A stretch of 20,000 nucleotides of DNA from an uncultured virus (IMG/VR IMGVR_UViG_3300025470_001263) (IMGVR_UViG_3300025470_001263), one strand, 5' to 3'. Positions 1 through 20,000 are shown, counted from the first letter of the stretch. The notes: generated by a model not told the origin, from the sequence alone. A program made the numbers and translations.

Positions 1-280
1 CATTTCTTGATGCTACTCTTTTTTCTATGTGTAATGGTGGTTGCACGGGTTCATCTTCAGTAGTTGGTATTATAACTTGGTTATTTTCCAAATCATAAAC
101 CACTGAATTAGGATTTGTTTCATCCTTCTCGACGTGTATTTCAACAGGTTGGGATGGAGTTGGTTCCGGTGTATCGTAAATAATCCTTGGTTTTCCGTAT
201 TTGTAATATAACGGAAGGTTTATTGCATTATAAGGTGAAATTGTTGAACCCAATGTTGGAGTTGGGGGTTCTTCTAAAGA
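1..280 (-). CDS. Start-less -1-frame extension of the 274..1719 membrane protein (Pro/Glu/Thr-rich, runs off window edge)
   Basis: Manual translation from 280 gives 93 stop-free codons (SLEEPPTPTLGSTISPYNAINLPLYYKYGKPRIIYDTPEPTPSQPVEIHVEKDETNPNSVVYDLENNQVIIPTTEDEPVQPPLHIEKRVASRN). There is no ATG, and an in-frame TGA lies just upstream of the A10 run at 281-290. Composition resembles the acidic tail of the upstream ORF. Confidence 0.65.
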
Positions 281-1719
281 TTTTTTTTTTCGTTGTCCTC
301 TTCAGGTACAACGTCTAATGTCGTTGGTTCGTTACTAAATGTTTCCGTTTCAACATCGTTTAAAACTTGTAACATATCATTGGGAAGTTGCCCTTCTTCA
401 AATGTTAATTCAGGTTCATTGTCTACTGATTCATCAATTGGAATGATTAATTCTTCGTTTTCTTGGTAAATATTTTCGATATTTGTTTCAATAGTAGAAA
501 AATTTTGTTCTTCTTCATCTATTGATGGTTCAATAGTAGAAACTTCTTCATCAATCATCGGATTATCAAATGGTTCATCATATAAACCCATATCCTGATT
601 ATTTTGTATCATTTCACCAATCGGGTCTCTATATGTTTCTTTAATAACTTTATAATCGTTATCAAGTCCACCTTTTTCTCTTGGTCCACTATTTGCTAGT
701 GCACCTGTCGGTTCATCTTCAGGAAGTACAGGACCGTGTAATGCTTCTCTTTGAGCCTCATATTTTTGCATTCTTTCCCAAACTTCATCGGGAAGATTTG
801 ACCAAGGTTTTTGATTCACTTCTTCTTCATACTTCTTAGCACCTTCTTTCAATGCTTCGTTTGGTTCGACTGGTGTTTTAGAAAATATATATTTTTCTAA
901 AATTTCTAAATCATTTTTACTTAGAATAAGTGGAACTTCATCTGTATCAATAGTATCTTTAATTGGTTTATTTTCATTTCCAGTTGGTTTACCATCCAAT
1001 ACCAATTGATTGAATGCAATTACTAAAGCAATTGCCAATGGATCGAAAACAATTACTATTAATATTATGAAAAATTTAACTACGGAATTCAACGGTACGT
1101 TAAAAGCTTGCGCAACAAATCTGAATCCTCCAACTTCTTTTTCCAAGTTAATATTATTATTTTTAATTTCGTTGATATGGCCATTATAAACAACATTTGA
1201 ATCTTGTAACGAACTTATTTTATCTGATATAAGTTTTGTTTGTTTATCACGATTATCGATAGATTTTAATAAACGATTGTTAACTTTATTATCTAATAAT
1301 TTACCTTGGTTTTGTTGTAAATTAGTTAATTGTGTTGTTAAGTTAGTAATTTGAGAAGTGTTGGAAGTAATTTTATTATTCCAAACATCAATTTCTCTTT
1401 GTACTTGTTCTAATTTAATATTTTGTTGTTGGAAAGCATTTGATAGGTAACCAAATATACCTGCAGACGTAATTGTCATTAGGATAACGACAGAAATTGT
1501 TAGGTACCATTTATTAATACCTTGTATCTCAGACCATTTTTGTTTGAGGTATGTTGCGGTAACTAATTTAGCAAATTCTAAAGAACCAGCCATAACCATA
1601 ACGGCAATTGCTGCTCCGCTAAATAATACCGCTAAACCTGTTACTGAAAAATATGCTGCGCTACCAGCAATCATAAAAGCAGCAATAGCTATCAAATATT
1701 TTAACCAATCATTTCTCAT
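274..1719 (-). CDS. Phage membrane protein: 3 N-terminal TM helices, coiled coil, fourth TM (FDPLA motif), acidic low-complexity tail
   Basis: Hydrophobic stretches at about aa 8-50 and 72-92, an N/Q-rich heptad region, and FFIILIVIVFDPLAIALVIAF. A TATTTAT motif lies 5 nt upstream of the ATG. Confidence 0.8.
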   Translation of the reverse strand: MRNDWLKYLIAIAAFMIAGSAAYFSVTGLAVLFSGAAIAVMVMAGSLEFAKLVTATYLKQKWSEIQGINKWYLTISVVILMTITSAGIFGYLSNAFQQQNIKLEQVQREIDVWNNKITSNTSQITNLTTQLTNLQQNQGKLLDNKVNNRLLKSIDNRDKQTKLISDKISSLQDSNVVYNGHINEIKNNNINLEKEVGGFRFVAQAFNVPLNSVVKFFIILIVIVFDPLAIALVIAFNQLVLDGKPTGNENKPIKDTIDTDEVPLILSKNDLEILEKYIFSKTPVEPNEALKEGAKKYEEEVNQKPWSNLPDEVWERMQKYEAQREALHGPVLPEDEPTGALANSGPREKGGLDNDYKVIKETYRDPIGEMIQNNQDMGLYDEPFDNPMIDEEVSTIEPSIDEEEQNFSTIETNIENIYQENEELIIPIDESVDNEPELTFEEGQLPNDMLQVLNDVETETFSNEPTTLDVVPEEDNEKKNL

Positions 1720-1722
1720 GTA

Positions 1723-2538
1723 TTATAAATATTTTAATAACTCATAACTCTCATTTCTGAGTTTTTTTATTGCTTTATCTCTCAATTGTCTAATTCTTTC
1801 TTTAGTACAACCAAACTCTTCACCCAAATCTTCTAAATTAGACTCGATACCATTCAAACCATAATATTTTTCAATAATCACTTTTTCTCTTTCATCAAGG
1901 TTTGCTAATAATTGAGAAACTTTCTTTTTTATTTCTTCAGGAGAATTAATAATGTCTTCAGGAGTTTCGCAATTGTTGTTAGGTATGATATCAATTAATT
2001 GATCACCATCCTCATTAATATCGTTATATAAACCAACACAATATGGATATGAGCTATTTTCACTTTCGTTAGCTAATAGACCTGAAATCAACAAATAATT
2101 TTCGTCATTTAGTTCATCCTTCCTTTGTTTTTGTGCATCTTGAATAATATTCGATGGGAGCCTGATAGTTCTTGAATTATCATTCAAAGAAGAAAATATT
2201 GTTTGTCTAACCCAATGAACTGCATATGAAATAAATTTAACTCCACTAGTAGGGTCGAATCTTTCAGCTGCTTTAATCAAACCTAAATTACCTTCCGAAA
2301 TCACATCTAACAAATCCATACCTTGGTTTTGATACATTTTAGCAACAGAAATAACAAACCTTAAATTACCTAAGATTAATTCATTATGTAATTTTTGTTT
2401 GGTTTCTTTGTCTAAATTCTTATTTGTTAAAATTTCAAAAATTTCTTCTTGTCTTTCGTGAGAGATTACAGGAATTTTGCGAATATCTTTTACATATTGT
2501 GCAATTTCCTCTGCGTTTAAAATTGTTGATTTTTTCAT
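1723..2538 (-). CDS. Sigma70-family RNA polymerase sigma factor (Bacteroidota RpoD-like, no region 1.1)
   Basis: Region 1.2 YVKDIRKIPVIS; region 2 NLRFVISVAKMYQNQGMDLLDVISEGNLGLIKAAERFD...FISYAVHWVRQ; region 4 LEDLGEEFGCTKERIRQLRDKAIKKLR. The ATG at 2538 is preferred over the track start at 2589. Confidence 0.93.
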   Translation of the reverse strand: MKKSTILNAEEIAQYVKDIRKIPVISHERQEEIFEILTNKNLDKETKQKLHNELILGNLRFVISVAKMYQNQGMDLLDVISEGNLGLIKAAERFDPTSGVKFISYAVHWVRQTIFSSLNDNSRTIRLPSNIIQDAQKQRKDELNDENYLLISGLLANESENSSYPYCVGLYNDINEDGDQLIDIIPNNNCETPEDIINSPEEIKKKVSQLLANLDEREKVIIEKYYGLNGIESNLEDLGEEFGCTKERIRQLRDKAIKKLRNESYELLKYL

Positions 2539-2585
2539 TGGTAGTATGTGCGGTTGGTTTGTGTTATAAAAATACTGAAAAAAAA

Positions 2586-3026
2586 TCAATTTTCAAAATT
2601 ATCTAAGAAGTTTTTTTCTTCGGGAGTTAAACTTTCTACCCCCATTTTTTCTATCTTATCCAATAGTTGATCCAAATCCATTGATTCAGGTTTATGAAAA
2701 TCCAATAACATCATTGTACTTTCCGAAAAAGGTTTGAATATAAAATCTTTAACATCTTTGGGAAGATGTGCTATGACAATGCTGTCTCTTTCAAATATGA
2801 AATAAAACTTAATATTTTCATTTCTTAATGCCTCATTCAATTCATCTGATAGAGTTACATCATCTAAATCTGAATCAAATATTATAATAATATTGTTATT
2901 GTTGGTCTCAATAACATACTTCAATGAGTTTATTGTTGGATTCATACCGAAAACTTCGGTGCAAAAAAATTCAACATCTTCGTGATCATCGAAGTCTGCA
3001 AATAAAAACAAAATAAAAGTCTTCAT
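2586..3026 (-). CDS. Hypothetical protein with C-terminal DUF6576-like motif
   Basis: The C-terminus LDQLLDKIEKMGVESLTPEEKNFL resembles the LDKI..G..SLT.EEK..L motif found in Bacteroidota proteins (recalled, not searched). Confidence 0.65.
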   Translation of the reverse strand: MKTFILFLFADFDDHEDVEFFCTEVFGMNPTINSLKYVIETNNNNIIIIFDSDLDDVTLSDELNEALRNENIKFYFIFERDSIVIAHLPKDVKDFIFKPFSESTMMLLDFHKPESMDLDQLLDKIEKMGVESLTPEEKNFLDNFEN

Positions 3027-3686: not shown

Positions 3687-3733
3687 ATTGTCTTTTTTTA
3701 TAAATATGAAGAATTTATCTTTATTCCCTATGA

Positions 3734-4405
3734 TTACTTTTTCTTAACAATCTCGTCGATAATACCATAAGTTAATGCATCGTTAGCGTCTAACCATAAA
3801 TCACGACTAGCATCGGCTTTAACTTGTTCAGGGTCTTTACCGCAGTAACTCCCTAAAAGATCAAATAAAATATTATTGACTTTCTCCCATTCTTTGAAAG
3901 TTATTCTTGCATCTTGGATATTACCACCTGCACCACCTGAGGATTGGTGTAACATCGTTGTAGAGAACCTTAAAGCTCCTCTTTTACCTTTGGTACCTGC
4001 TCCAAGTAAAACTGACCCCATAGAAGCGGCCATCCCCGTATTAATGGTTCTAATATCGGAACTAATATACTCCATAACGTCTACCATCGATAAACCTGAT
4101 TTTACAGACCCACCAGGACTATCAATATGCATTGTGATGTCATTATTGTCGATACTATCCAAAAACATTAATTGAGCTTGAGTAACAACTGACATGTTAT
4201 CGTTTACTTCACCGGCCACCCAAATGATACGTTCCATCATCAAACGTGAGAAAACATCCATCTGCGTAACATTCAATTGTCTCTCTTCAAGAACATATGG
4301 TGTTAAACTGTTAGATACTTTTTGATTATAATAATGTAAGTTCATTGAACTTATACCGCGGTCTTTAGCGTATAGACCAAAACTTTTCAATTCTGATGGG
4401 TTCAT
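3734..4405 (-). CDS. clpP: ATP-dependent Clp protease proteolytic subunit
   Basis: LTPYVLEER..MDVFSRLMMERII, SPGGSV, catalytic Ser in MAASMG, His in MLHQ, Asp in RDLW, and YGIIDEI. Confidence 0.96.
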   Translation of the reverse strand: MNPSELKSFGLYAKDRGISSMNLHYYNQKVSNSLTPYVLEERQLNVTQMDVFSRLMMERIIWVAGEVNDNMSVVTQAQLMFLDSIDNNDITMHIDSPGGSVKSGLSMVDVMEYISSDIRTINTGMAASMGSVLLGAGTKGKRGALRFSTTMLHQSSGGAGGNIQDARITFKEWEKVNNILFDLLGSYCGKDPEQVKADASRDLWLDANDALTYGIIDEIVKKK

Positions 4406-4452: not shown

Positions 4453-6792
4453 TTAAGAAATTTTTGTTGTAATAAAATCTATCGAAGAAATATTATCCTC
4501 TTTTTTTATCATTATAAGATTATCAGACCAGTTACGTATTAAAGGATTATGTGATATGACAAAAATGTGTTCAAAATAATTTTTAATTTTCTTAAAGAAC
4601 TCACCAACCAACTCAAGATTTTCATCGGCAACTTTACCAAATACTTCATCCATAACCACTATATTAGGTTTAGGTAATGATGAAATTTTTGTTAGTACAC
4701 TTCTAATCGCTAATGATGCTATTGTTCTTTCATAACCTGATCCTGAATTCAATGGTTTAACGATTCTTGATTCAGTATCAATCATTATAAATTCAACTTC
4801 ATTTTTATCATTGATATTCATCTCTAAAATAAAATAACAACTATCAATCAAAAGTCTATACAACTCCTCATTCAATAATGGAATCATATTTTTCAAAATA
4901 ACTTTAGAGATACCATTCTTACCATAGATTGTTAAATAAACTTTGAATACGTTTGATAACTCTTCTTCAGCTTTAATTTTTTTAATTAAATCCTCATTAG
5001 TGGCTATCTTATTGGTCATAAGACTAATGTTACTTCTATGTCGCTCTATATTTGTATTGTTTTGTTTTATATCAGCATTAGCTGTTTCAATTTGTGTCCT
5101 AATCCTAATAACGTCAGCATCTATCTTTTGATTTTCTTCAAGTTTCTTTTTATTATTTTCATAATTATTTAAACGCGTTTGTTTAGCATCAATATCTAAT
5201 TGTTTTTGACCAACCTCTAATTCATATCGCGCTTTTATAAGTTTATTTCTTTCATATGTTTCATATTCAGATTTCAGATTAATAAAAGCAGTTAAAGCTT
5301 TGTTTTTTTCTGTGATGTTTTTATTCAATTCATCTACTTGAGCTTGTAAATCTTTAATTTGATTTTTAATAGCTTCAATTTCATCAGAATGGTCAACCTC
5401 ATCTAAAGACCTATTACAAGTTGGACAAATAGATCCAGTTTCTAATTGAGTAATTAATTTTTGATTTTTTGAAATATCATTTTGAATAATTCTCAAATCC
5501 GATTTCAAATTATTGATTGTTGAATTCAATTCTTGATGTGTATCTTCATCATAAAACTCCGATGGTTCCGTAACATTTACATTATCAGCCAAGGCTTGGC
5601 TTTTCTTTTGTTCGGTTTTTAAAGTGTCTATCTCTCTTTGTAATAAAGTTGGATTTGTATTTATTAGATTTTTATCAATGTCGTTGTTTCTTGAACTAAG
5701 AATTAAATCTTTTTCGTTTTCTAATCTCTCTAATCTGGCTTCAGCATCAGTCAATGCTGTAGTTAAAATTTCAATTTGAGTTGTTGAGTTATCAATGCTT
5801 TGTGCAAAACTATCATTATCAATTCCAAGTTGAGTAAGGTTATATGTGTTTGAAACTAATTTCCTATTCCAATCATTGAATATTTCTTTTGCGCGTTCTT
5901 CTTTAATTTTGAGACTCTCCAATCCTAAAAATTTAGTTAAGATTTGTCCACGAGCAGTTGGTTTAGATTCGATTAATTCTTCTAAATTATAACCAGTAGT
6001 TAAAATGGTTGATAAAAAATCTTCTTCAGTACCGATAGCTGATTCAATAAAAGTTTCAGTTTCTCTTCTTTGTTCACCAGTTAAATTTTCTACTGTACCG
6101 TCTTCTTTTATTTTGGAGAATTCTAATTTTGTAGTAACATTATGTTCACCCAATTTAGTTTTCTTTCTTATAGATTTTCTTTCTATAATATAGTCGTGTC
6201 CGTCAATATTAACTTCACCTCTTACTTTAACTTCATCAACATCCGTGAATTTATTAAAAATTTCAGCGTTTGTTTTTGTTTTAGTAGTGATATTGAAAAA
6301 TAAAAACATTAATAAATCAACTGATGAGGTAGATTTACCACCAAAGTTTTTAGGTGTAGATTCTATTACAGTAATGCCATCAAGACTTGTAAAATCAATA
6401 ACATTATTATTACCAAATGATAAAAAATTGGAGAATTCAATTTTCTTAATAAACCATTTATTATATCTAATTTTATTTTCATTTAATTTATCTATTTCTG
6501 AATTAACTCGGTTATCTAATCTATCAACCAATTCCCATTTAATATTAATATTATTTTCTTTGATGAAGTCCTTCATCAATGTTTTTTGGTATTGACTATC
6601 TAAAATATTATCAGTGGCTTCTAACGAATTTAACTTTGTATTCTTGATATTGGTTAAAACCTTAGTAACTATCTGTACGTTCTTAGCGTTATATTTTTGT
6701 TGGAAATATGTCTTAACTCTTCTAATTTTCTCCGAGGTGAAGTTCTCCGGCACATCTTCCCAAGTCACTTTTATCGATGGATTTTTTGACAT
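4453..6792 (-). CDS. sbcC: SbcC/Rad50/gp46-like recombination ATPase with ~110-aa N-terminal extension
   Basis: IEFSNFLSFG, Walker A NFGGKST, long coiled coil with CPTC zinc hook, signature SGSGYE, Walker B VVMDEVFG, H-loop ISHN. Confidence 0.93.
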   Translation of the reverse strand: MSKNPSIKVTWEDVPENFTSEKIRRVKTYFQQKYNAKNVQIVTKVLTNIKNTKLNSLEATDNILDSQYQKTLMKDFIKENNINIKWELVDRLDNRVNSEIDKLNENKIRYNKWFIKKIEFSNFLSFGNNNVIDFTSLDGITVIESTPKNFGGKSTSSVDLLMFLFFNITTKTKTNAEIFNKFTDVDEVKVRGEVNIDGHDYIIERKSIRKKTKLGEHNVTTKLEFSKIKEDGTVENLTGEQRRETETFIESAIGTEEDFLSTILTTGYNLEELIESKPTARGQILTKFLGLESLKIKEERAKEIFNDWNRKLVSNTYNLTQLGIDNDSFAQSIDNSTTQIEILTTALTDAEARLERLENEKDLILSSRNNDIDKNLINTNPTLLQREIDTLKTEQKKSQALADNVNVTEPSEFYDEDTHQELNSTINNLKSDLRIIQNDISKNQKLITQLETGSICPTCNRSLDEVDHSDEIEAIKNQIKDLQAQVDELNKNITEKNKALTAFINLKSEYETYERNKLIKARYELEVGQKQLDIDAKQTRLNNYENNKKKLEENQKIDADVIRIRTQIETANADIKQNNTNIERHRSNISLMTNKIATNEDLIKKIKAEEELSNVFKVYLTIYGKNGISKVILKNMIPLLNEELYRLLIDSCYFILEMNINDKNEVEFIMIDTESRIVKPLNSGSGYERTIASLAIRSVLTKISSLPKPNIVVMDEVFGKVADENLELVGEFFKKIKNYFEHIFVISHNPLIRNWSDNLIMIKKEDNISSIDFITTKIS

Positions 6793-7657
6793 TTTTTTCT
6801 TTTTTTTGTTTTCTTTTATTTTTTTCAGCTTCTCTTTCAGCTCTTTCTTTTTCTTTCTCTTGTTTTAGTCTACGTTTGTTTTCTTCAATTTCAGACTTTG
6901 TTTCTTCCAACTGAATTCTATGATTAAAGTATTCAATTTGCTGTAAAGATAGTTCAGATCCAATATATTTCAAATTTCTATTTATACAAGATAAGGCCGT
7001 TGTACCTGTTCCCATAAATGGGTCATAGACAACTGAATTGTCTTTTGCGTAAATACCCAAAAGTTTATCACATAATTCAGTAGAATAAGTGGCTTTATTG
7101 TATGGATTACTACCATCATTGTTTTTTGCAACTATAAAGTTATCGATTATTTCATAATAATTCTGACCAGTTGATGATACCGATGCGACATCTTTATTAG
7201 CTTCGAATGTTAAAATTTCGTCTTTCCTACAAATTACATAAATAAATTCAAATATTCTGTTAAGTCTATTATAAGATGCAGGATGAGGTATTGCGTGATT
7301 TTTTTTCCAAATAATTGTATCAGCAATAGTGAACGGAGTATTCTTCAAAATTTCACAAACAATTGAATAGGGTAGGGCAGGATTTTCAATAGAATAAGAA
7401 AAATTATATAAAATAACCCCATTACTTTTCAATATTTCATCGAATGAATTAAAAACGTCTACAGTCCAATTAAGATAGGTTTCTTCATCTTGCCAATCGT
7501 TATAGGAATCGTATCTAGGTTGTTTATCAGCATAACCACCTTTCCTTTTAGTCATATTGTAAGGTGGAGATGTTAAAACAATATCAATAGATTTTTTATC
7601 TATTTTAGTTTTCATAGTCACCAAACAATCCTCATTATGTATTATGTTAATATCCAT
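6722..7657 (-). CDS. Beta-class amino-methyltransferase (N6_N4_Mtase family; SPPY suggests m4C) with K/E-rich C-terminal tail
   Basis: Motif IV TSPPY is N-terminal and motif I VYDPFMGTGTT is C-terminal (beta order). TAATG overlap with the upstream nuclease; the 3' end overlaps sbcC by 71 nt. Confidence 0.92.
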   Translation of the reverse strand: MDINIIHNEDCLVTMKTKIDKKSIDIVLTSPPYNMTKRKGGYADKQPRYDSYNDWQDEETYLNWTVDVFNSFDEILKSNGVILYNFSYSIENPALPYSIVCEILKNTPFTIADTIIWKKNHAIPHPASYNRLNRIFEFIYVICRKDEILTFEANKDVASVSSTGQNYYEIIDNFIVAKNNDGSNPYNKATYSTELCDKLLGIYAKDNSVVYDPFMGTGTTALSCINRNLKYIGSELSLQQIEYFNHRIQLEETKSEIEENKRRLKQEKEKERAEREAEKNKRKQKKEKNVKKSIDKSDLGRCAGELHLGEN

Positions 7658-8610
7658 TAATTCTGATTTAATATTAGTCTTGATTTAAAATCAAGTAAGT
7701 CAAACCAATAACATCCAACACATCCTATAGCATCATTATATTCAAGATTTCCACTTGTTAAAGATATACCATATCCTAAAAAAGATGCATCGTATCTTAT
7801 ACAATTTTCTTTACATCTTTTACAAGAATTTCTTTTAATTTTATTACATTTATTACATAACGGTTGAAAATCTGATAAATTTTGAGTTATTGAGTTTAAA
7901 ACTTCTTTGTCATCATATCTACCGTTTTTGTGATCGACCTCAATTTTAGTTCTTGTATTGCAATGTGCACATTTTTGTTTTGAAATTATTTTTTTTATAT
8001 CATCACGTATATATCTATTTTTATGTTCATAATCAAAATTGAAACCATTGAATTTATACGCAATTGTTAAACCATTCTCTCCGAGCCAAGTTTCAACTTT
8101 AAAAATAGCTTCAGCATCTCTTTTCCAACCTACTCCGTTATTCGGTTTCAATTTATCATCTTTAGCATCAAAAATATCAAAAAAAGTTTTCTCAGAAAAA
8201 CCAAATTCATCAACGGGTGAATATTTTAGGATTCTTGCAATTTTACTTTTAGGCTTAAGTTTTCTTAATTTTTCTCTGAAATAAAATAATAATTCTTGCT
8301 CTTCTTCCTTGATTTCTTTTGCAACTTCTAAAACTATTTTTTCATCACATTTATATTTTGTTTTTAAATCCTCAATTACTTTCCTCCATTCTGTGGCAGA
8401 ATTTTCGGTAGTTTTAAAAAAAAATTTATGTTTTTGTGATGAAATTTTTAAATCTATCTGAATCGCATTTCTTCTTTCTTCAATCGAAGAAGGTATGACT
8501 GGTTCAAATAATTTAGAATCGCTGAAATAAAAATCTTTTACTACCTGATATAATAAATCATTAGTGTTGTTATAATAAAATATTTTTTTACCTATCCTAT
8601 AAGATCTCAT
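7657..8610 (-). CDS. HNH restriction endonuclease of the R.NlaIII/IceA1 family (CATG-type), with N-terminal extension
   Basis: NNGVGWKR, FNGFN...IRDDIKK, CAHC..IEVDHKNGRYDD, TQNLSDFQPLCNKCNKIKRNSCKRC, RYDA and GCVGCYWFD follow the motif order I recall for NlaIII and H. pylori IceA1. Confidence 0.82.
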   Translation of the reverse strand: MRSYRIGKKIFYYNNTNDLLYQVVKDFYFSDSKLFEPVIPSSIEERRNAIQIDLKISSQKHKFFFKTTENSATEWRKVIEDLKTKYKCDEKIVLEVAKEIKEEEQELLFYFREKLRKLKPKSKIARILKYSPVDEFGFSEKTFFDIFDAKDDKLKPNNGVGWKRDAEAIFKVETWLGENGLTIAYKFNGFNFDYEHKNRYIRDDIKKIISKQKCAHCNTRTKIEVDHKNGRYDDKEVLNSITQNLSDFQPLCNKCNKIKRNSCKRCKENCIRYDASFLGYGISLTSGNLEYNDAIGCVGCYWFDLLDFKSRLILNQN

Positions 8611-8921
8611 TATTTTATTCTATTTTCTTCAAAAAATTCAACAATCGAATTGATTGCCCAAACAACACCTGCAGTAAACATACCGTCAGAAAATATACCA
8701 ATGTATTTATTAACACCAAATATAGGTGCAACTAAACCTCCGAAAAGAATCGACATAAAAAATCCTACCCAAGTTGGTGTACACAACATACAACTAATTA
8801 AATCACCAAAAAATTTTGATTTTGTTTTAATCCAAGCTCTTTGATTTTCGAAGATTGATCCATAAACAATTATGGTTGACATTCCGTATGCAACGAATGC
8901 CCACAAGACAAGATATATCAT
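8610..8921 (-). CDS. Small membrane protein, DUF1360-like
   Basis: Three hydrophobic segments and a CxxCxxxW motif (CMLCTPTWVGF). Confidence 0.7.
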   Translation of the reverse strand: MIYLVLWAFVAYGMSTIIVYGSIFENQRAWIKTKSKFFGDLISCMLCTPTWVGFFMSILFGGLVAPIFGVNKYIGIFSDGMFTAGVVWAINSIVEFFEENRIK

Positions 8922-8950
8922 ATTAACGTTTTTTTAAAATATACGAAAAA

Positions 8951-9328
8951 TTATTCGTCATACAAAGAACTGAGGTTACTATTTTTCATAAACGTACCCT
9001 TTTTTTGTGTATTAAAGGCAGCGAGGATTTTATCCATATCTTCTTTTAACTTATCATATTCCTCCTTGAGTTTTACGTATTCCGTATTATCTGTATTATT
9101 GATAATTACTTCTTTGATAACCTCAACAGGTATTTCTTTTATCACTTCCTTTTCGACTATAACTTCATTAGTTTTACCTGAAGCAAATGACGGGGATTCA
9201 CCATATTTTAGATACGCAAAGCCTCTGTTAAATGTTTCCTTAGCTAATTTATCAATGTCAGTGATATTATTCAATTCACAATACAAAGAGAATTCATCAT
9301 CCAAGATTAAGGTGTATTTCTTTTTCAT
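8951..9328 (-). CDS. Hypothetical protein with EVIKE-type repeats and short coiled coil
   Basis: VIVEKEVIKEIPVEVIKEVI. ATG at 9328 (the track starts at TTG 9331); overlaps the 3' end of the SbcD-like gene. Confidence 0.7.
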   Translation of the reverse strand: MKKKYTLILDDEFSLYCELNNITDIDKLAKETFNRGFAYLKYGESPSFASGKTNEVIVEKEVIKEIPVEVIKEVIINNTDNTEYVKLKEEYDKLKEDMDKILAAFNTQKKGTFMKNSNLSSLYDE

Positions 9329-10103
9329 CAATAATATCGTTAATATCTTTTATCGAGAAATGTAAAAATGGTTCATCATTTTCTAAATCTCTAAATGTGT
9401 AATTATTTTCTACCACGTCGAAAATACCATAACCGTGATGATTCAATGTCTCACCGAAGTTTTGTTGTATGAGTGAACCTATCATAATACCTTTACCCCC
9501 ACTTGGTAAAGTAAATGTTTGTCTTTTATGAATATCACCGCACAATAATAAATCTAAATCGACAAAATTCAACTGATCATACGCATCTTCGAATTGGAAT
9601 CCCATATCGGTTGATAACCCTTGGATAGGACCGTGAAACAAACCTACTGTTAATTTAGTCTCATCCTTTTTGAATTCAGGTCGTGAGTTATGTTGATATA
9701 AAGAATAAACAATCCATTGAATGTTATCGTCTATATATTCACCACTATCTTTATAATATTGAATGTTATCGTTATTCAATAGTTCTGTTATAGGACTGAT
9801 ACTATCTAATCTCTGTGTATTGTTTTCTAAAAAATCATGATTACCAGGTATGATAACTACCTTACCAATATTTTTCACCAACTCATTTATAAACCAAGAA
9901 GTTAACATCAACTGTTCATTAGATATGTTAATTTTTTGGTGAGCTATATCTCCTGCAATTACAACTCTAATGTCCTCATAATTGAAATCTTGAGTTTCTT
10001 CCTTCAATTCAAGGATTAATTTTTCGAACTGCTTTTTGTATAAATCGTGCATTTGAATTGTACGAATATGTAAATCAGCAATATGTATTATTTTTTTTAC
10101 CAT
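9297..10103 (-). CDS. sbcD: SbcD/Mre11/gp47-like metallophosphoesterase nuclease (short, catalytic domain only)
   Basis: IADLH, GDIAH, GNHD, FHG, GDIH and GSLIQQNFGE motifs. Confidence 0.92.
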   Translation of the reverse strand: MVKKIIHIADLHIRTIQMHDLYKKQFEKLILELKEETQDFNYEDIRVVIAGDIAHQKINISNEQLMLTSWFINELVKNIGKVVIIPGNHDFLENNTQRLDSISPITELLNNDNIQYYKDSGEYIDDNIQWIVYSLYQHNSRPEFKKDETKLTVGLFHGPIQGLSTDMGFQFEDAYDQLNFVDLDLLLCGDIHKRQTFTLPSGGKGIMIGSLIQQNFGETLNHHGYGIFDVVENNYTFRDLENDEPFLHFSIKDINDIIDEKEIHLNLG

Positions 10104-10973: not shown

Positions 10974-11375
10974 TTACCAACTTATTTCCCAATCTTTAAA
11001 ATCTGCAGCAAGACAGTCTATCTTATAATCTTTCCTACCTCCAACAACTTCTTGAATTTTATTTTTTGCAGTATTACGAATACCATTTATTCCGTGAGTT
11101 AATGCTAACATACTCGGTCCTGCGGCACCACTTCTAACATTTGTTTCATTATACCATATGTGTGCATTCATTTGAGCTAAAACCACAACAGCTCTTAAAA
11201 CATCTGCTGTAATAATACCGTTTTGTTCATCTAATATTACTTGAATATCGTGAACAATGTCAGCAATCTCTTGTGCATACTCAGTTTTATGTTCTGGTAT
11301 TTTAACTTCTTTTAATTGTGTTATCGATAATCTATCGATTAATTCTGATAACGTGGGTAGATATTTTCTTTCCAT
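10974..11375 (-). CDS. Conserved helical hypothetical protein (DUF4254/DUF6165-like)
   Basis: TLSELIDRLSITQLKE, N..IW.NE..VR and N..RN..KN.I motifs; TAATG coupling to the primase gene. Confidence 0.6.
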   Translation of the reverse strand: MERKYLPTLSELIDRLSITQLKEVKIPEHKTEYAQEIADIVHDIQVILDEQNGIITADVLRAVVVLAQMNAHIWYNETNVRSGAAGPSMLALTHGINGIRNTAKNKIQEVVGGRKDYKIDCLAADFKDWEISW

Positions 11376-12316
11376 TAGTCTAATTGTTTTAATTCGTAAT
11401 CTTTTATATTTCCTTGCAAATCTGCTATGTCCTTATCTCCTTCTAATTTTATAATCCAAACTTTATTCATTAATTTACCACAATTTAATTTGTGATATAA
11501 TCTTTCAGCGTCACCCCAAGCATCGGGGTCTAATACTATCACTATCTTAAAGGCTTTCTCATATAATTTAGTGTATAAATGATCACTCATATACTTACCT
11601 AACATTGGTATTGAGTTCTTTATAAAAATACTATCGAAGGCTCCTTCAACTATGTAGATTGTATCAGTCCAATTAATATGATACTCATTAAAAATTATGA
11701 TTTCTTTTTGAGCTTCAGGATTTTTATATTTTCTTTTTGGTTTTGATAAATATGATCTAGCAATAAAGTAATTCAAATTATTATATTCATCATAAGATGG
11801 TATTATAATTCTAAATGCATATTCTCCATCATAACAAAATCCGATATTAAATTTTATTAACATCTCTTCTGTTATATTTCTTTTTTTGATGTAAGCGTAT
11901 GCTTGTCTATATTGTGGAGTTAATTTTAAACCACTACTGGCGTTTTTGAAAGCAATAAATTCTTTAGGTAATTTGACAGGTTTATAGATTCTTTTTGGGG
12001 CATCCTCATTATATTCAGGTCTTAATAACAAAAACTTTTTAAGTTGTTTTGCATTACCATATTTTTTAATTAATTTATAAATTGAACCGTGAGTTTCGTG
12101 AGTTTCTGCACAACTCCAACATTTATAAACACCTGATTTATAATTAATTTCTAAATTTCCTTTACCGTCACCTTCATCTAAACCTTTTATTTCGTGACTA
12201 CATACTGGGCAATCAAAACTCACCTGACTTTTATAGTCACTGTGATTTCTATAATCACCAAAAATATCTTCTAAAATTTCGAAAATTGGTGTATAATCGT
12301 TTACTTCAATTGCCAT
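11375..12316 (-). CDS. Phage DnaG-type DNA primase (Zn finger + TOPRIM)
   Basis: CPVC...CWSC zinc-binding domain, YIKKRNI, RIIIP, FIAR, KYKNP, IVEGAFD, LDPDA and DIAD. The ATG at 12316 is preferred because the track start at 12388 runs through the terminator hairpin. Confidence 0.9.
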   Translation of the reverse strand: MAIEVNDYTPIFEILEDIFGDYRNHSDYKSQVSFDCPVCSHEIKGLDEGDGKGNLEINYKSGVYKCWSCAETHETHGSIYKLIKKYGNAKQLKKFLLLRPEYNEDAPKRIYKPVKLPKEFIAFKNASSGLKLTPQYRQAYAYIKKRNITEEMLIKFNIGFCYDGEYAFRIIIPSYDEYNNLNYFIARSYLSKPKRKYKNPEAQKEIIIFNEYHINWTDTIYIVEGAFDSIFIKNSIPMLGKYMSDHLYTKLYEKAFKIVIVLDPDAWGDAERLYHKLNCGKLMNKVWIIKLEGDKDIADLQGNIKDYELKQLD

Positions 12317-12344
12317 AACGAATAATATACATAAAAAAATTGAT

Positions 12345-12377
12345 AAAAAAAAATCCCTCGGACACCACTCCGAGGGA
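12345..12377 (-). terminator. Intrinsic (Rho-independent) terminator
   Basis: Perfect 9-bp GC-rich stem TCCCTCGGA-gtggtg-TCCGAGGGA (12354-12377) followed by T9 on the minus strand. Confidence 0.85.
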
Positions 12378-12414
12378 ACACCAACCAAACCTGTATTTCT
12401 ACAGGTCCCGTCCT
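12345..12414 (-). ncRNA. Candidate ~70-nt small RNA (or attenuator) with two hairpins
   Basis: AGGACGGG-ACCTGTA-GAAA-TACAGGT-TTGGTTGGTGT-terminator-T9. A GC-rich island in an AT-rich gap, with a GNRA tetraloop and a promoter-like element directly upstream. Confidence 0.55.
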
Positions 12415-12453: not shown

Positions 12454-13074
12454 TTAATTGCCGGATTTTTTTTCTGCTTTACTCATATTAATATGTCCGA
12501 TAACACAAGTAACTGCATCAGCCATATCGAAGTTTTCTTTTTTTAGATTGCCCGTTTTACCGTATAACCATTTGATATCGGGGCAAACTACATTAACGTG
12601 GTCCCAAATAACTTGTTTTTTGTCAATATCTTTTGGATAACCTCCAAATAAAACATTACGACCTTTATCATTTGGTCCAACTAAATCAGGAAATGCAAAT
12701 TTTCTTGCATTATAAGTTGAAATGAATGTTGGTAAAATACCTAAAACATCATAACAATTCTTGAGAATCAATGTATTATATCTTAATAAAGTTTGTACTG
12801 TATAAACATTATTAGAATTGATTAAGGGTTCCTCGATCACAATTCTAACAATTCCCATTTCCTTATAATTTTCCAAGTGTTTTTTAAAAGCATCTGCTTT
12901 TTTTAACAATTCTTCGATTTTATCTTCAGGTTGTGGTTTGATTTTTGGAGAAAAATGTGTCAATTCTAATAAATCTGAACCATTTAAATCAAATAAAGCA
13001 AAACCAATTGTTTTGGTACTAATATCTAAACCAAGAATTTTTGGTTTATTTTTAAATTTTACATCTATTTTCAT
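12454..13074 (-). CDS. ruvC: RuvC-like Holliday junction resolvase (phage type)
   Basis: RNase H-fold catalytic motifs ILGLDISTKTIG, IVIEEP and DMADA. Confidence 0.85.
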   Translation of the reverse strand: MKIDVKFKNKPKILGLDISTKTIGFALFDLNGSDLLELTHFSPKIKPQPEDKIEELLKKADAFKKHLENYKEMGIVRIVIEEPLINSNNVYTVQTLLRYNTLILKNCYDVLGILPTFISTYNARKFAFPDLVGPNDKGRNVLFGGYPKDIDKKQVIWDHVNVVCPDIKWLYGKTGNLKKENFDMADAVTCVIGHINMSKAEKKSGN

Positions 13075-17092: not shown

Positions 17093-17170
17093 ATGTTAAT
17101 AAATACCTCTTCCAAGAAATATTTAAAATCAATTTAAACAAAAAAACAATTATTATAAAGAGTTAATTGA

Positions 17171-19429
17171 TTATGCACAGACGCCAGTGGCTGTAAATTT
17201 ACCTACGCTATTTATAATACCGACAGTTCCATTAAAATCTACATAATAATATCCAAATCCATCATATGGTGTACCATCGGAATAATAGTAAGTTATTCCA
17301 TTACCAAGATTTGAATCACCTCCAGCACCTGGATATATTGTAACTACATTTGTTAATGTATAAGCATACATACAAGCATTTGCTTGAGTTCCGCCATAAT
17401 TCACTAAGAATCCTGTCCCTACTCCTTGTAAATCCATTACTGAACTTGTTGTTGTACAACCATTTGTATCTGTAACAACAACATAATAATTGAAGGGTCC
17501 CAAACTTGTAAATGAACCTGTACTATTACTAGTGATAAGTGTACCACCGCTATTGATATATGGAGACGATGTGTCTTCATATAATGAATATGTATATGGA
17601 CTTGTTCCGCCAGCTGCGGTTGCTGTTATTGATCCATTGTTACCTGATGTTGCATTTGTAAATGTTGTTGATACAGACAAAGCTGCACTTGGTTGACTTA
17701 CCGTTCTTGAATATGTCGTAGGAGAACATCCACTATCATCTTCAATATAAATTGTATAAGTGTTAGGTGATAAACTACTAAATAAATGTGGTACCGAATA
17801 ATATGTTGAACCATTGATTGATGTTTGATATCCTGTACCCGAACCGCCTGATGGTGTATAAACTTGTATAGTACCATTTGAACCACCATAACAAGAAACA
17901 TTTGATACTGCAATTGATGCGGTTACTTGTGTTGTGTTAAGTGTTACAGATGATGATGTTGCAACAGTTCCATTAGAATCCTTTACTTTTACTAAGTATG
18001 TTCCGTTAGATAATCCATTGAATGTTGCTGAAGATTGATATGAACCATAACTAGAACCACCATTCGAACTAATCGCATAAGTATAAATTCCTGTTCCCCC
18101 TGTACCTGATGCTGTTAAATTTCCATCACTATTACCATAACAACTTGGATTAGTTGAAAAAGTTATAGAAACATTTAATGCAGGTAATGTATGTGATGGT
18201 GTTGGCGTTAACGTTACAGTTGGTGTAGGTGTTAAAGTTGGTGTTACAGTTGGTGTTGGTGTTAAAGTAGGTGTTTTTGATGGTGTGACGGTTGGTGTTG
18301 AAGTATATGTTACAGTTGGTGTTGCTGTATAAGTTGGTGTTATACTCGGTGTAATTGTAACTGAAGGTGTAGGTGTTTGTGTTGGGCTTAATGTAGGTGT
18401 AGGTGTGGGTAATGTTGGTATTGGATTACCGCAATAAATTGTTGCAACACATCTAGCAGTACAAGTATCATAATATAAATTATAACCAGCAGGACAACTA
18501 TATCCATAACCAACAATATCACTAACATCTACGTAAGTTCCTACTCTAGAAGATGAAGTGAACTGAACATTTAATTGACTATATAGAGTTGCACCTGTCA
18601 ATTGTGATAAAGTATTATTATATATTTCAACACCAAAACCCGCAATTGAATCAATATTATAACCTTGAACTGATAGTGTTGCTGTTGGTGTATCAAATAC
18701 AACAGGATATACGTGCCAATAATTAAATTGTTCAGTTGATCCTGATGTTGATTGTAATGTTGTATCTATTAATTTTGTTCCATTGACACTTATTTTAAAA
18801 TCATTATCAGCCGAAACTCCGACATAATAAGTTGTACCCACAGTTAAACCAGTTATACATTGAACAAACCCAATAAAAGTACCTGTTGGATTATCAGTAG
18901 CACCTGTGGAAGGTCCTGGCCAAACCGCACATCTATTCATTGGGCCATCAGAAGTGTTTGTATAAGGATTTGACCAAAGTGTACCTACATACGTTCCACC
19001 AAAAGATGGGGTTGTAAAACCTGCTAAATAAGTGCCTGTTCCATCTATATTAAAAGATGTAAAAAATTTGGTGCCAGCATCACTGTAAACGTTATTAGTT
19101 CTGCCCGATAATGAAACCAATGTTGTTGGTGGTTGTGCTGGCATTGATATTGTTGTATATGAAGCGGTACCATCCAAAGTACCAATCCAAGTATAACCTG
19201 TTGGGCACGCAGTAAAATCCTGTTTAGAAACTAATTCATTTGAAATTTTAGCAGATAAATGAGCATTTGTAGGATCAATAGCAACATACCCCAACGCACG
19301 AGATTTTGTTAACTCTTTGTTGGTTGTTTGAATTGTTTTCAACGAACTAAAATATCCTGCGGTAACCGCTTGACTTAATGTTGTATCACTAACAATTTCA
19401 TTACTTGTTAATCCTGTCCAAAATGCCAT
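17171..19429 (-). CDS. Large adhesin-like virion protein: beta-sandwich domain, Thr-Pro linker, three SprB-type repeats
   Basis: Three repeats of N.SC.G..DG.I.....GG...Y.Y...F..L..GTY.V.V.D.NGC at about 17441-18175; TP linker at about 18195-18417. Confidence 0.8.
18195..18417 (-). repeat. Thr-Pro low-complexity coding repeat (similar tracts at about 15896-16031, 16646-16756 and 16792-16866)
   Basis: Degenerate ACACCA/ACACCT repeats encoding (TPTxTP)n; boundaries approximate. Confidence 0.85.
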
Positions 19430-20000
19430 ACAAATTTTCTATTTTTGATTCCAATTCTTTTATCTTCTGTTCTAATTGTTGTATTTTCAAAGTGTGTACA
19501 TCACTATAATTAACAGTTAATGGCATATCACCTACAACTAAATCACTACAAAGCTCTTTTACTTCTTGAGCAGAATAACCATATCTTACTTGTTTATCAC
19601 CTCTCATTGTAAATTGAATTACGTTTAATGATGATAAATCAATGTTTGGATTTCTTAAAATTATATTTTTTACTCTTATATCTGATGTTTCATAATAAGC
19701 TGTAGCATAAACACTACCCGTAACACTCAAATTTGTTCCATCAAATGTCAAATTACTGTTAACTAAACCACTTGCTGTTGCATTTACATATGTAATGATG
19801 CCATTGTTGGTTGTTCCTGCTAAAGTTAAAAAACCACTTGTACCAGAAGAACCATTTGCACCATTAGCTCCACTTGTTCCAGAAGAACCATTTGCACCAT
19901 TAGCTCCACTTGTTCCAGAAGAACCATTTGCACCATTAGCTCCACTTGTTCCAGAAGAACCATTTGCACCATTAGTACCACTTGTTCCAGAAGAACCATT
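19401..20000 (-). CDS. Tail fibre C-terminal part: Gly-X-Y repeats plus S74 intramolecular chaperone (start lies beyond the window)
   Basis: The frame is open from 20000: ([12 protein letters not shown])n..[21 protein letters not shown]. Autocleavage motif SDIRVK, then [13 protein letters not shown] and a terminal coiled coil. Confidence 0.88.
19834..20000 (-). repeat. 36-bp tandem repeat, about 4.6 copies visible, encoding [12 protein letters not shown]
   Basis: Unit CCACTTGTTCCAGAAGAACCATTTGCACCATTAGCT (+ strand) at 19834, 19870, 19906, 19942 and 19978 (partial), with 0-2 differences per unit. Confidence 0.95.

What the first reader, a model, noticed from the sequence alone, without database searches (positions are those of the whole stretch)
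1..20000. Extreme window-wide CATG avoidance, matching the predicted site of the encoded endonuclease
Seen: scanning by eye I found only three CATG (1717-1720, 4193-4196, 9836-9839), against roughly 50 expected at ~30% GC. GATC, with the same base composition, occurs more than 20 times. His codons before a G-starting codon are almost always CAC (about 20 cases, e.g. primase CAC GAA ACT CAC GGT and sbcD CAT CAC GGT), while the His codons I checked before other bases mostly use CAT. The one exception I saw is the catalytic GNHD of sbcD. This points to selection on the DNA word rather than codon bias. Inference: either self/non-self discrimination by site avoidance for the phage's own nuclease, or long-term escape from host CATG restriction with the cassette later captured from such a host.
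Basis: partly seen in the sequence, partly recalled or inferred. Interest (0 to 1): 0.8.

Follow-up and report, generated by a model that had tools for sequence, protein, structure and literature searches.

The report
Phage purged of its nuclease's site
An uncultured giant bacteriophage carries a restriction-type DNA cutter predicted to cleave CATG and has almost erased CATG from its own genome, and in its relatives this erasure comes and goes with the cutter gene, which suggests that the phage protects itself by lacking the target rather than by marking its DNA.

Summary
The window has CATG only at 1717, 4193 and 9836, against about 56 expected. CATG is the most depleted of all 256 tetramers, and the depletion is written into synonymous codon choice.

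The window belongs to an uncultured T4-like jumbo phage family (contigs up to 335 kb). In this family the gap before sbcC is a swap site for restriction-modification cassettes. Here it holds an IceA/NlaIII-family HNH nuclease (7657-8610) and a coupled beta-class methylase (6722-7657).

Across the family:
- 15 of 15 nuclease-bearing loci have CATG at 0.12 of expectation or less. Only 1 of 49 nuclease-free loci does (median 0.62).
- Thirteen records carry the nuclease with no methylase in the slot. They hold 0 CATG in 301 kb (807 expected).
- Their nuclease genes are under strong purifying selection (dN/dS 0.03-0.07).
- One close relative (~90% identical) had the nuclease replaced and has regained CATG.

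Best reading (about 0.6): site absence is the phage's immunity to its own CATG cutter, and the methylase is a later add-on.

Against it:
- One nuclease-free sister lineage is also CATG-free.
- The host is unknown.
- Specificity is inferred, not measured.

This scan has noted the same footprint before, in giant viruses. I class it as a new variant of known kinds (PacI, chlorovirus R-M).

The parts
1..20000 (.). CATG-depleted phage DNA (3 sites, about 56 expected)
   Evidence: The near-identical record G001 has 6 against 170 expected.
7657..8610 (-). Long-form IceA/NlaIII-family His-Me (HNH) nuclease, 317 aa: a phage-specific N-terminal domain of about 120 aa followed by the PF05315 domain
   Evidence: PF05315 at 93.7 bits against a cut-off of 24, residues 124-310. 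The D226-H227-K228-x-G230 and N256 residues and the cysteines are invariant in 49 homologues. The model has pLDDT 84.9, and its best fold matches are the HNH nuclease Cap5, weakly (E 0.09).
6722..7657 (-). Beta-class (N6/N4) DNA methyltransferase, 311 aa. Its start codon shares one base with the nuclease stop. Its last ~62 aa have no homology and run 71 nt into sbcC.
   Evidence: PF01555 at 113.6 bits. It is 62-67% identical over aa 1-249 to methylases paired with short IceA-like nucleases in four other phage contigs, and no more than 28% identical to other methylases in this slot.
4453..6792 (-). SbcC-like ATPase, the downstream border of the cassette slot
   Evidence: phrog_77. It is 71% identical to the L001 orthologue from residue 1.
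8610..8921 (-). DUF1360-like small membrane protein (family F1), the upstream border of the slot
   Evidence: Weak PF07098 match. It is present in 82 of the slot ORF sets.
9297..10103 (-). SbcD-like phosphoesterase. It contains the CAT-GAT (GNHD) CATG at 9836.
   Evidence: PF00149 and phrog_100. The site is private to the window.
1717..1720 (.). Residual CATG: an intergenic C followed by the ATG start of ORF 274-1719
   Evidence: Shared with G001 and L155.
4193..4196 (.). Residual CATG: AAC-ATG (Asn-Met) in the ClpP-like protease gene
   Evidence: Shared with G001 and L155.
9836..9839 (.). Residual CATG: CAT-GAT in sbcD, a new synonymous CAC>CAT change found only in this strain

Best explanation
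The window is part of an uncultured T4-like jumbo phage. In this family the slot just upstream of sbcC carries exchangeable nuclease and restriction-modification cargo.

In this phage the slot holds a long-form IceA/NlaIII-type HNH nuclease, inferred to cut unmethylated CATG, and a translationally coupled methylase. The near-absence of CATG is the phage's immunity to its own nuclease. A genome without the site cannot be cut, so the enzyme can attack host DNA, co-infecting phage DNA, or both, while the phage's own DNA is spared.

In most lineages of the family the nuclease stands alone in the slot, and site absence is then the only visible protection. The window's lineage has added a cognate-type methylase, which relaxes the constraint: a few strain-variable CATG sites are tolerated.

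What is shown:
- the depletion;
- that it arises through synonymous codon choice;
- the gene families;
- the co-distribution of nuclease and depletion across relatives;
- purifying selection on the nuclease;
- the regain of CATG after the nuclease was replaced.

What is inferred:
- CATG specificity (from family membership and the footprint);
- that the enzyme is active;
- what it attacks;
- that the nuclease, not the host, is the selecting agent.
For: 1. Depletion by synonymous choice.
2. PF05315 is the family of NlaIII and IceA1 (passage in PMC5714182). The window protein scores 93.7 bits.
3. Family survey on the 64-row SbcC tree set: 15 of 15 IceA-bearing rows have CATG O/E of 0.12 or less, against 1 of 49 IceA-free rows. 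The IceA-free rows have median 0.62 and range 0.00-0.86 (raw counts).
4. Thirteen records with the nuclease and no methylase in the slot hold 0 CATG in 301,497 bases, with 807 expected. These are G005, L102-104, L156, L158-164 and L169, and several are near-duplicates.
5. Those nuclease genes have dN/dS of 0.03-0.07 at dS of 0.3-3.3. The proteins are therefore maintained while silent sites turn over without ever creating CATG.
6. Natural experiment: L156 (nuclease, 0/57) and G003/G004 are ~90% identical, and exactly the nuclease gene is replaced by another gene. G003/G004 carry 7 CATG in the aligned ~19 kb. Five can be polarised, and all five are single-base gains on the nuclease-free branch (456 substitutions). 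There are none on the L156 branch (605 substitutions). Whole G004 has 115 against 322 expected.
7. The methylase is of the kind that partners IceA-like nucleases: 62-67% identity to such partners and 28% or less to other slot methylases.
8. Only this methylase-bearing lineage keeps CATG (3/56, 6/57, 6/170), and the sites differ between strains that are 97-99% identical.
9. Two other slot cargoes go with total loss of other palindromes. F9 plus a methylase goes with TCGA at 3/68, against 0.96 in the rest of the family. Solitary F14 goes with ATTAAT at 0/46, against 0.89 in the rest. Each is essentially one lineage.
10. Outside the family, 34 of 54 viral loci encoding IceA-like proteins have CATG O/E of 0.30 or less, and CATG ranks first or second among the 256 tetramers in 28 of 54.
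Against: 1. G002/L050/L064, the sister of an IceA-bearing phage, has 0 CATG against 141 expected. It has no PF05315 gene in 55 kb. Its 213.7-kb contig was not returned by the IceA motif scan. It is only ~73% identical to its sister and shows no recent recombinant tract. CATG absence is therefore kept there without the known nuclease.
2. Several lineages have lost every GATC without any candidate GATC nuclease in the slot. Some other force, most simply host restriction, can therefore erase a 4-mer in this family.
3. CATG is mildly low family-wide (median 0.62).
4. Only 5 independent contrasts exist (4 in the same direction, 1 with no difference; sign test p = 0.125).
5. Cleavage specificity and activity were not measured, and the fold match to HNH nucleases is weak (E 0.09).
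6. All records are genome fragments (11-28% complete by CheckV). A methylase, or a nuclease, elsewhere in the genome cannot be excluded. G005 has two further adenine methylases of unknown specificity.
7. No control set of unrelated viral contigs without the gene was analysed.
Confidence: 0.6

Rival explanations
1. Host-driven avoidance with permissive carriage. These lineages lost CATG to escape CATG-specific restriction in their hosts. A solitary CATG nuclease can only be acquired and kept by genomes that are already site-free, so the gene marks the avoidance and did not cause it.
For: - G002/L064 is CATG-free without the nuclease.
- Total GATC loss occurs in many lineages with no slot nuclease to blame.
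- Site avoidance against host systems is widespread in non-temperate phages (title and abstract of PMC6286503).
Against: - CATG came back in G003/G004 once the nuclease was replaced, while three nuclease-bearing sisters stayed at zero. This reading needs a coincident host change there.
- Four deep nuclease lineages all coincide with zero CATG, while their nuclease-free neighbours sit at 0.45-0.86.
- If the host itself methylated CATG, a phage CATG cutter could not touch host DNA and would gain little. This point is an inference.
- The host is unknown, so nothing here supports a host CATG system directly.
Confidence: 0.27
2. Ordinary virus-borne restriction-modification footprint. The nuclease and methylase work as a normal R-M pair, as in chloroviruses. 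The depletion is the familiar weak-to-strong avoidance that R-M carriers show for their own site because methylation is never complete.
For: - The window has both genes, translationally coupled.
- Of 24 other viral loci whose neighbourhoods were scanned, 21 pair an IceA-like gene with a methylase within 3 kb. Their CATG O/E ranges from 0.02 to 1.09.
- The F9 plus methylase lineage also avoids TCGA.
Against: - It does not explain the 13 records with no methylase in the slot and no CATG at all.
- It does not explain why the methylase-bearing lineage is the only one that tolerates sites.
- PBCV-1, the model virus-borne CATG system, keeps many methylated CATG sites (passages of PMC7248222).
Confidence: 0.08
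3. No link to any nuclease. The depletion reflects mutation bias, translation (avoiding internal ATG contexts) or chance.
For: None specific. CTAG and GATC are also low in the window.
Against: - Close relatives with the same composition and the same genes keep CATG at 0.4-0.86 of expectation.
- All three reading-frame contexts are purged.
- Observed 2 against 34.4 +/- 4.0 under a shuffle that preserves protein and codon usage.
Confidence: 0.02

Closest known systems
NlaIII (Neisseria lactamica) and IceA1 with M.HpyI (Helicobacter pylori): CATG type II restriction-modification, Pfam PF05315
   Same: The C-terminal ~190 aa match PF05315 well above the cut-off. The His-Me motif and the cysteines are conserved. 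A methylase lies next to it in the window (family definition in PMC5714182).
   Different: - The phage form has an extra ~120-aa N-terminal domain found only in about 15 phage-type homologues.
- In most relatives it has no adjacent methylase.
- The window's methylase is beta-class (PF01555).
- The carrier is a lytic-type jumbo phage, not a bacterium.
- CATG specificity is inferred, not measured.
PacI of Pseudomonas alcaligenes: a solitary HNH restriction enzyme in a genome that lacks its site
   Same: A restriction nuclease is kept without a methylase because the carrier genome has no target (discussion passage of PMC3488263). It is also an HNH enzyme; that detail is recalled, not taken from a call.
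   Different: PacI's site is 8 bp (recalled, not taken from a call), so its absence needs little or no selection. Here a 4-bp word expected about 2.7 times per kb has been removed entirely by synonymous changes and is kept out, and the carrier is a virus.
Chlorovirus PBCV-1 R.CviAII/M.CviAII: a virus-encoded CATG restriction-modification system
   Same: A large DNA virus encodes its own CATG-directed system (Table 1 passage of PMC7248222).
   Different: - PBCV-1 protects itself by methylating its many CATG sites, not by lacking them (same paper).
- Homology of the window nuclease to R.CviAII was not tested.
- The host is a eukaryotic alga.
Restriction-site avoidance by phages against host systems
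   Same: Genome-wide loss of a short palindrome through silent changes (title and abstract of PMC6286503).
   Different: Here the avoided word matches a nuclease encoded by the phage itself, and it tracks that gene's presence among close relatives.
Marseillevirus restriction-modification systems used against competing viruses
   Same: A virus-borne restriction enzyme degrades the DNA of related viruses that lack the system, not host DNA (discussion passage of PMC7253447). This is a plausible role here.
   Different: Those systems include the methylase, and no site purge is described in the passages seen.

Membership tests
PF05315 ICEA (NlaIII / IceA1 type II restriction endonucleases, His-Me finger) | Profile match above Pfam's gathering score | tested here: met
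   93.7 bits against a cut-off of 24, residues 124-310 on profile positions 3-199 of 218. Relatives score 105-239 bits.
PF05315 ICEA (NlaIII / IceA1 type II restriction endonucleases, His-Me finger) | Conserved His-Me catalytic residues and zinc-binding cysteines | tested here: met
   D226, H227, K228, G230, N256, C214, C263, C266, C297 and C300 are invariant in 49 long and short homologues. N229 is conserved in at least 90%. That these are the catalytic and zinc residues is my reading of the motif.
PF05315 ICEA (NlaIII / IceA1 type II restriction endonucleases, His-Me finger) | Beta-beta-alpha-metal fold | tested here: inconclusive
   The model has pLDDT 84.9 but pTM 0.51. The best PDB matches are the HNH nuclease Cap5 (probability 0.99, E 0.09), then TagI and T5 SciA, none at E of 0.001 or better. 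No solved relative was found by sequence.
PF05315 ICEA (NlaIII / IceA1 type II restriction endonucleases, His-Me finger) | Cleavage at CATG, blocked by methylation | not testable with these tools
   Indirect only: CATG is the word missing from the carriers.
Orthodox type II restriction-modification pair | Adjacent nuclease and methylase of matching specificity | tested here: inconclusive
   - Window: the genes are adjacent and coupled, and the methylase is 62-67% identical to partners of IceA-like nucleases. Its specificity is unknown; the nearest solved structures are N4-cytosine and N6-adenine enzymes.
- Relatives: 13 records have no methylase in the slot.
Solitary restriction enzyme in a site-free genome (PacI type) | No cognate methylase in the genome | tested here: not met
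   The window itself has a methylase next to the nuclease. For the relatives the slot has none, but all records are fragments and G005 has two other adenine methylases.
Solitary restriction enzyme in a site-free genome (PacI type) | Carrier genome lacks the recognition site | tested here: met
   Relatives: 0 CATG in 301,497 bases, with 807 expected. Window: 3 in 20 kb; G001: 6 in 50.6 kb.
Host-directed restriction-site avoidance | Host encodes a restriction system for the avoided word | not testable with these tools
   The host is unknown. There is no cultured relative: the best phage match to SbcC is 23-24% identical, and megablast found no match.
Host-directed restriction-site avoidance | Avoidance independent of the phage's own gene content | tested here: inconclusive
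   The avoidance tracks the nuclease in 4 of 5 independent contrasts. The fifth (G005 against G002/L064) shows avoidance without the gene.

The most novel reading that the evidence does not exclude
A family of ~330-kb freshwater-type jumbo phages practises methylase-free restriction.

- A solitary four-base cutter is kept under strong purifying selection.
- Its only self-protection is the complete eradication of its site from the phage genome.
- Unlike methylation, this immunity cannot leak to the host or to co-infecting rivals.

The slot before sbcC would then be an exchangeable arsenal, in which each swap of nuclease re-writes genome-wide word usage:
- IceA-like with CATG;
- F9 plus a methylase with TCGA;
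- F14 with ATTAAT.

Loss of the nuclease lets the word drift back.
Probability: 0.45. Interest if true: 0.85.

Novelty: new variant of a known kind. Interest (0 to 1): 0.72.

Why it matters
Restriction enzymes are usually thought to need a partner methylase to be tolerable, and phage site avoidance is usually read as escape from the host.

This case points to a third arrangement. A virus carries the cutter itself and is immune because it has deleted the target word from several hundred kilobases of its own DNA. If confirmed, this has several consequences:
- It gives a simple sequence-only rule for predicting the specificity of uncharacterised viral nucleases: the missing word.
- It gives a way to date gain and loss of such genes from the return of the word.
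- It gives an example of how a weapon gene can shape the codon usage of a whole genome.
- It identifies the sbcD-sbcC interval of these phages as a natural library of compact restriction enzymes, several of them from unknown families.

Tried and rejected
- **Whole genome of the window.** None is held. I used the near-identical 50.6-kb record G001 instead.
- **Cultured relatives.** Megablast and tblastn against 50,697 GenBank phage records found no close relative and no IceA-like protein. The host could therefore not be named.
- **First scans for relatives of the nuclease.** Searching with the single nuclease protein, and then with a two-sequence alignment, returned only L001. A 14-sequence alignment was needed.
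- **The 192-aa slot protein F2 of G002 as a hidden CATG nuclease.** F2 has a PD-(D/E)XK fold; its best match is DpnI. But an 85%-identical copy sits in L051, which keeps CATG at 0.52. It is therefore not a good candidate.
- **Remnants of the nuclease gene in G002, G003 and G004.** tblastn at E up to 10 found nothing.
- **A recent recombination tract around the G002 slot.** None was seen.
- **Other slot cassettes.** EcoRI-like plus D12 methylase, F4+F5, F15+F13 and the rest were tested for their own missing palindromes. Nothing passed the thresholds at about 22 kb per locus. Power for 6-mers is low.
- **NCBIfam names for the small slot proteins.** None were found.
- **Literature on phage-encoded restriction with site avoidance.** Full-text searches for 'restriction site avoidance' + phage + CATG (0 papers) and for 'phage-encoded restriction' / 'site avoidance' / 'host chromosome degradation' / 'palindrome avoidance' (1 paper, PMC6286503) found no description of this arrangement in the library searched.


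Full report
**1.

- The window (30.6% G+C) has CATG at 1717, 4193 and 9836 only. Expected numbers are 55.3 from composition and 56.1 from a second-order Markov model. z = -8.4, the lowest of all 256 tetramers.
- GATC, with the same composition, occurs 24 times. It is itself depleted (about 55-62 expected).
- All 21 ORFs lie on the minus strand, and the loss is written into codon choice in all three frames:
  - His before G: 22 CAC to 1 CAT, against 51 CAT to 16 CAC elsewhere.
  - NCA before TGN: 0 of 23.
  - NNC before ATG: 1 of 40.
- Shuffling synonymous codons while keeping protein sequence and codon usage gives 34.4 +/- 4.0 CATG in coding DNA (minimum 22 in 1000 shuffles). Two are observed.

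**2. What the window is**

Pfam and PHROGs identify:

| Coordinates | Product |
|---|---|
| 1723-2589 | sigma-70-like factor |
| 3734-4405 | ClpP-like protease |
| 4453-6792 | SbcC |
| 6722-7657 | PF01555 methyltransferase |
| 7657-8610 | PF05315 (ICEA) protein |
| 9297-10103 | SbcD |
| 11375-12388 | primase |
| 12454-13074 | RuvC-like resolvase |
| 17171-20000 | collagen/SprB-repeat fibre-like proteins |

- PF05315 is the family of the restriction enzymes NlaIII and IceA1, members of the His-Me finger superfamily (table passage of PMC5714182).
- No whole genome is held. A 50.6-kb record, G001, is 99.4% identical over the window and has 6 CATG against 170 expected.
- There is no cultured relative. 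The best GenBank phage match to SbcC is 23-24% identical.
- Relatives are IMG/VR contigs of up to 335 kb. They carry T4-type baseplate, sheath, gp32, RNR and DnaB genes. This is therefore an uncultured T4-like jumbo phage family.
- The host is unknown. SprB repeats hint at Bacteroidota, but this is only a guess.

**3. The slot**

- In 83 related loci I compared the genes between sbcD and sbcC. After two conserved small genes (F0 and the DUF1360-like F1) comes a variable position.
- That position holds one of three things:
  - a 174-237-aa protein, F2;
  - nothing;
  - one of many two-gene cassettes made of a small unknown protein and a methylase.
- Cassettes seen are EcoRI-like plus D12 methylase, unknown plus PF01555 methylase, and unknown plus Eco57I/N6 methylase.
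- F2 models confidently (pLDDT 86.4, pTM 0.81). Its best PDB matches are PD-(D/E)XK nucleases, with DpnI first (E 0.0015).
- The slot is therefore a hotspot for nuclease and restriction-modification cargo. The window's nuclease plus methylase is one such cargo.

**4. The nuclease tracks the missing word**

- The phage nuclease is a long form (317-329 aa). A ~120-aa N-terminal domain, seen only in about 15 phage-type homologues, precedes the PF05315 domain. The several hundred other homologues are proteins of about 200 aa.
- It always sits in the same slot.
- Loci carrying it:

| Records | Methylase in slot | CATG observed/expected |
|---|---|---|
| window, L155, G001 | yes | 3/56, 6/57, 6/170 |
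| G005 (L001/L002) | no | 0/222 |
| L102-104 | no | 0/56, 0/54, 0/59 |
| L156, L158, L159 | no | 0/57, 0/53, 0/41 |
| L160, L161, L169 | no | 0/30, 0/38, 0/57 |
| L162-164 | no | 0/45, 0/36, 0/58 |

- Pooled, the 13 records without a slot methylase hold 0 CATG in 301,497 bases, with 807 expected. Several are near-duplicates.
- On the 64-row SbcC tree, 15 of 15 nuclease-bearing rows have O/E of 0.12 or less. Only 1 of 49 nuclease-free rows does (median 0.62, maximum 0.86).
- The nuclease-bearing rows fall in four or five separate places on the tree (5 state changes). The nucleases of these groups are only 35-45% identical to each other, while SbcC is 65-76% identical. Within groups the two proteins diverge in step. 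The gene is therefore old in the family, not freshly captured.
- Phylogenetically independent contrasts number only five. Four go the predicted way and one shows no difference (sign test p = 0.125).

**5. A natural experiment**

- L156 (nuclease present, 0/57) and the records G003/G004 are ~90% identical on both sides of the slot. Exactly the nuclease gene is replaced by F2.
- In the aligned ~19 kb, G003/G004 carry 7 CATG. For the five that can be polarised with L158 and L159, the site is a single-base gain (TATG>CATG or CACG>CATG) on the nuclease-free branch.
- The L156 branch has more substitutions (605 against 456) and no gain.
- Whole G004 has 115 against 322 expected.
- The solitary nuclease genes have dN/dS of 0.03-0.07 at dS of 0.3-3.3. 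The protein is conserved while silent sites turn over without ever making CATG.

**6. The methylase**

- The window methylase's start codon shares one base with the nuclease stop codon (coordinates).
- Over residues 1-249 it is 62-67% identical to methylases that sit beside short IceA-like nucleases in four other phage contigs. It is 28% identical or less to the other PF01555 methylases of this slot.
- Its last ~62 residues have no homology and run 71 nt into sbcC. I read this as the mark of a fairly recent insertion.
- Only this lineage keeps CATG sites, and they vary between strains that are 97-99% identical. The site at 9836 is a CAC>CAT change private to the window, and L155 has its own site at the position matching 12856. 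L155 has three more sites in a stretch that does not align.
- In aligned DNA this is 1 CATG difference per 128 substitutions and 2 per 355. That is close to the 5 per 456 seen on the nuclease-free branch above. The numbers are small.
- The specificity of the methylase is unknown. The nearest solved structures are an N4-cytosine enzyme and M1.HpyAVI.

**7. What does not fit**

- G002/L050/L064 is the sister of nuclease-bearing G005 (support 96). It has 0 CATG against 141 expected in 55 kb.
  - Its slot holds F2, and no PF05315 match exists in the 55 kb.
  - Its 213.7-kb contig was not among the 54 viral loci found with the nuclease motifs.
  - It is ~73% identical to G005 and shows no recombinant tract. 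The CATG-free state is therefore actively maintained there.
  - An 85%-identical F2 occurs in L051, which keeps CATG at 0.52. F2 is therefore a poor candidate for the selecting agent.
- Several lineages have lost every GATC (0/38 to 0/67) with no candidate GATC nuclease in the slot. GATC is low family-wide (median 0.21). Some other force, most simply host restriction, also erases words in this family.
- All records are fragments (11-28% complete).
- G005 and G002 carry a Dam-family methylase elsewhere, and G005 also has a small phage N6A methylase.

**8. Beyond the family**

- Of 54 viral loci encoding IceA-like proteins, including giant-virus contigs, 34 have CATG O/E of 0.30 or less. CATG ranks first or second of the 256 tetramers in 28. 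Many of these loci are near-duplicates, and I ran no matched control of unrelated contigs.
- I scanned 134 of the 257 neighbouring ORFs, covering 24 loci (L102-L132). In 21 loci a methylase (PF01555, PF02086, or once PF00145) lies within 3 kb. In three loci (L102, L127, L129) none does.
- In metagenome contigs carrying short-form homologues, which are of mixed origin, O/E ranges from 0.00 to 1.00 (46 loci of at least 4 kb).

**9. Other cargo-word pairs**

- Pooling loci by slot cargo:
  - The F9 plus methylase lineage (L059-63) has TCGA at 3/68, against 0.96 in the rest of the family.
  - The solitary F14 lineage (L023, L027, L029) has ATTAAT at 0/46, against 0.89 in the rest, and has no GATC.
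- Each is essentially one lineage.
- They repeat the pattern with unrelated genes and words. This is hard to explain by the host alone.

**10. Integrity of the nuclease**

- D226, H227, K228, G230, N256 and five cysteines are invariant in 49 long and short homologues.
- The model has pLDDT 84.9 and pTM 0.51. Its best fold matches are the HNH nuclease Cap5 (probability 0.99, E 0.09), with TagI and phage T5 SciA lower down. None is significant.
- No solved relative was found by sequence.

**11. Reading**

- Most likely (about 0.6): CATG absence is immunity to the phage's own CATG cutter.
- The enzyme would act on host DNA or on co-infecting phages. Family members without it carry roughly 1.7 CATG per kb.
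- A virus-borne restriction enzyme that degrades rival viruses has been shown for marseilleviruses (discussion passage of PMC7253447).
- Immunity by site absence, unlike a methylase, cannot also protect the host or a rival. This is my inference.
- The main rival (about 0.27): host CATG restriction removed the word first, and a solitary nuclease can only live in such genomes.
- The regain of CATG after nuclease replacement argues against the rival. G002 argues for it.

**12. Known relatives of the idea**

- A solitary restriction enzyme in a site-free genome is known for PacI (discussion passage of PMC3488263).
- A virus-encoded CATG system is known in PBCV-1, which methylates its CATG sites and does not lack them (passages of PMC7248222).
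- Phage avoidance of host sites is well documented (PMC6286503; abstract and passages).
- Two full-text searches found no description of a phage-encoded solitary cutter with a purged genome.
- Earlier notes of this scan report the same CATG footprint in giant viruses.
- I therefore class this as a new variant of known kinds. It is distinguished by the complete purge of a 4-bp word, by the absence of a methylase in most lineages, and by the comparative evidence of gain, loss and regain.

Noticed in passing
window 6722-8921; loci L002-L081, about 8.4-10.0 kb in locus coordinates: The interval between the DUF1360-like gene and sbcC is a hotspot for restriction-modification cargo in this phage family. 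More than a dozen different small-protein plus methylase cassettes occur there (EcoRI-like plus D12; unknown plus PF01555; unknown plus Eco57I/N6 type). Most of the small proteins have no known family.
   Followed up: partly
L059-L063 (slot cargo F9, 198 aa, plus PF01555 methylase): This lineage has almost no TCGA (3 against 68 expected when pooled; 0.96 of expectation in the rest of the family). F9 is therefore a candidate TCGA-specific nuclease of an unknown family.
   Followed up: partly
L023, L027, L029 (slot cargo F14, 197 aa, no methylase in slot): No ATTAAT (0 against 46 expected when pooled; 0.89 in the rest of the family) and no GATC. F14 is a candidate solitary nuclease with a 6-bp AT-only site.
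   Followed up: partly
L064:9441-10019 and 24 homologues (family F2): F2 is the commonest occupant of the slot. It models confidently as a PD-(D/E)XK nuclease fold whose best match is the methyl-dependent enzyme DpnI. D40, E52, E54 and K86 are invariant. F2 is absent wherever the IceA-like gene is present.
   Followed up: partly
G002 (L092-L094), L050, L064: A CATG-free phage (0 against 141 expected) with no recognisable CATG nuclease. This is the main unexplained exception.
   Followed up: partly
L013, L014, L023, L027, L029, L076-L081, L102-L104, L160-L164, L169: Complete loss of GATC (0 against 20-67 expected) in several separate lineages. GATC is low family-wide (median 0.21). No candidate GATC nuclease was found. 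G005 and G002 carry a Dam-family methylase near nusG.
   Followed up: no
L066, L067: CTAG is absent (0 against 30 and 22 expected). The slot is empty, and GATC and CATG are near normal.
   Followed up: no
window 6722-6910: The methylase ORF runs about 62 codons past its homologous part, and its last 71 nt overlap the start of sbcC. This looks like read-through after an insertion that lost its own stop codon.
   Followed up: partly
window 4453-6792: The window's SbcC sits on an unusually long terminal branch (0.35 changes per column, against a median of 0.02-0.04) in the family tree.
   Followed up: no
window 17171-20000; G001 (L084:12080-18835): Very large collagen-repeat and SprB-repeat proteins, one of 2251 aa with 18 collagen stretches, probably fibres. 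This is the only hint to the host group.
   Followed up: no
L108, L110, L111, L118, L121, L128, L130, L132: In giant-virus-type contigs the IceA-like nucleases are paired with D12-class methylases. In phage contigs they are paired with PF01555 methylases. CATG O/E in these contigs ranges from 0.09 to 0.72.
   Followed up: partly
L102-L104, about 8393-9634: Sugar-modifying genes lie in or beside the slot in some lineages: a UDP-glucose dehydrogenase here, and glycosyltransferases and a DegT aminotransferase in others (L071, L080). Their target is unknown and could be DNA or the virion.
   Followed up: no
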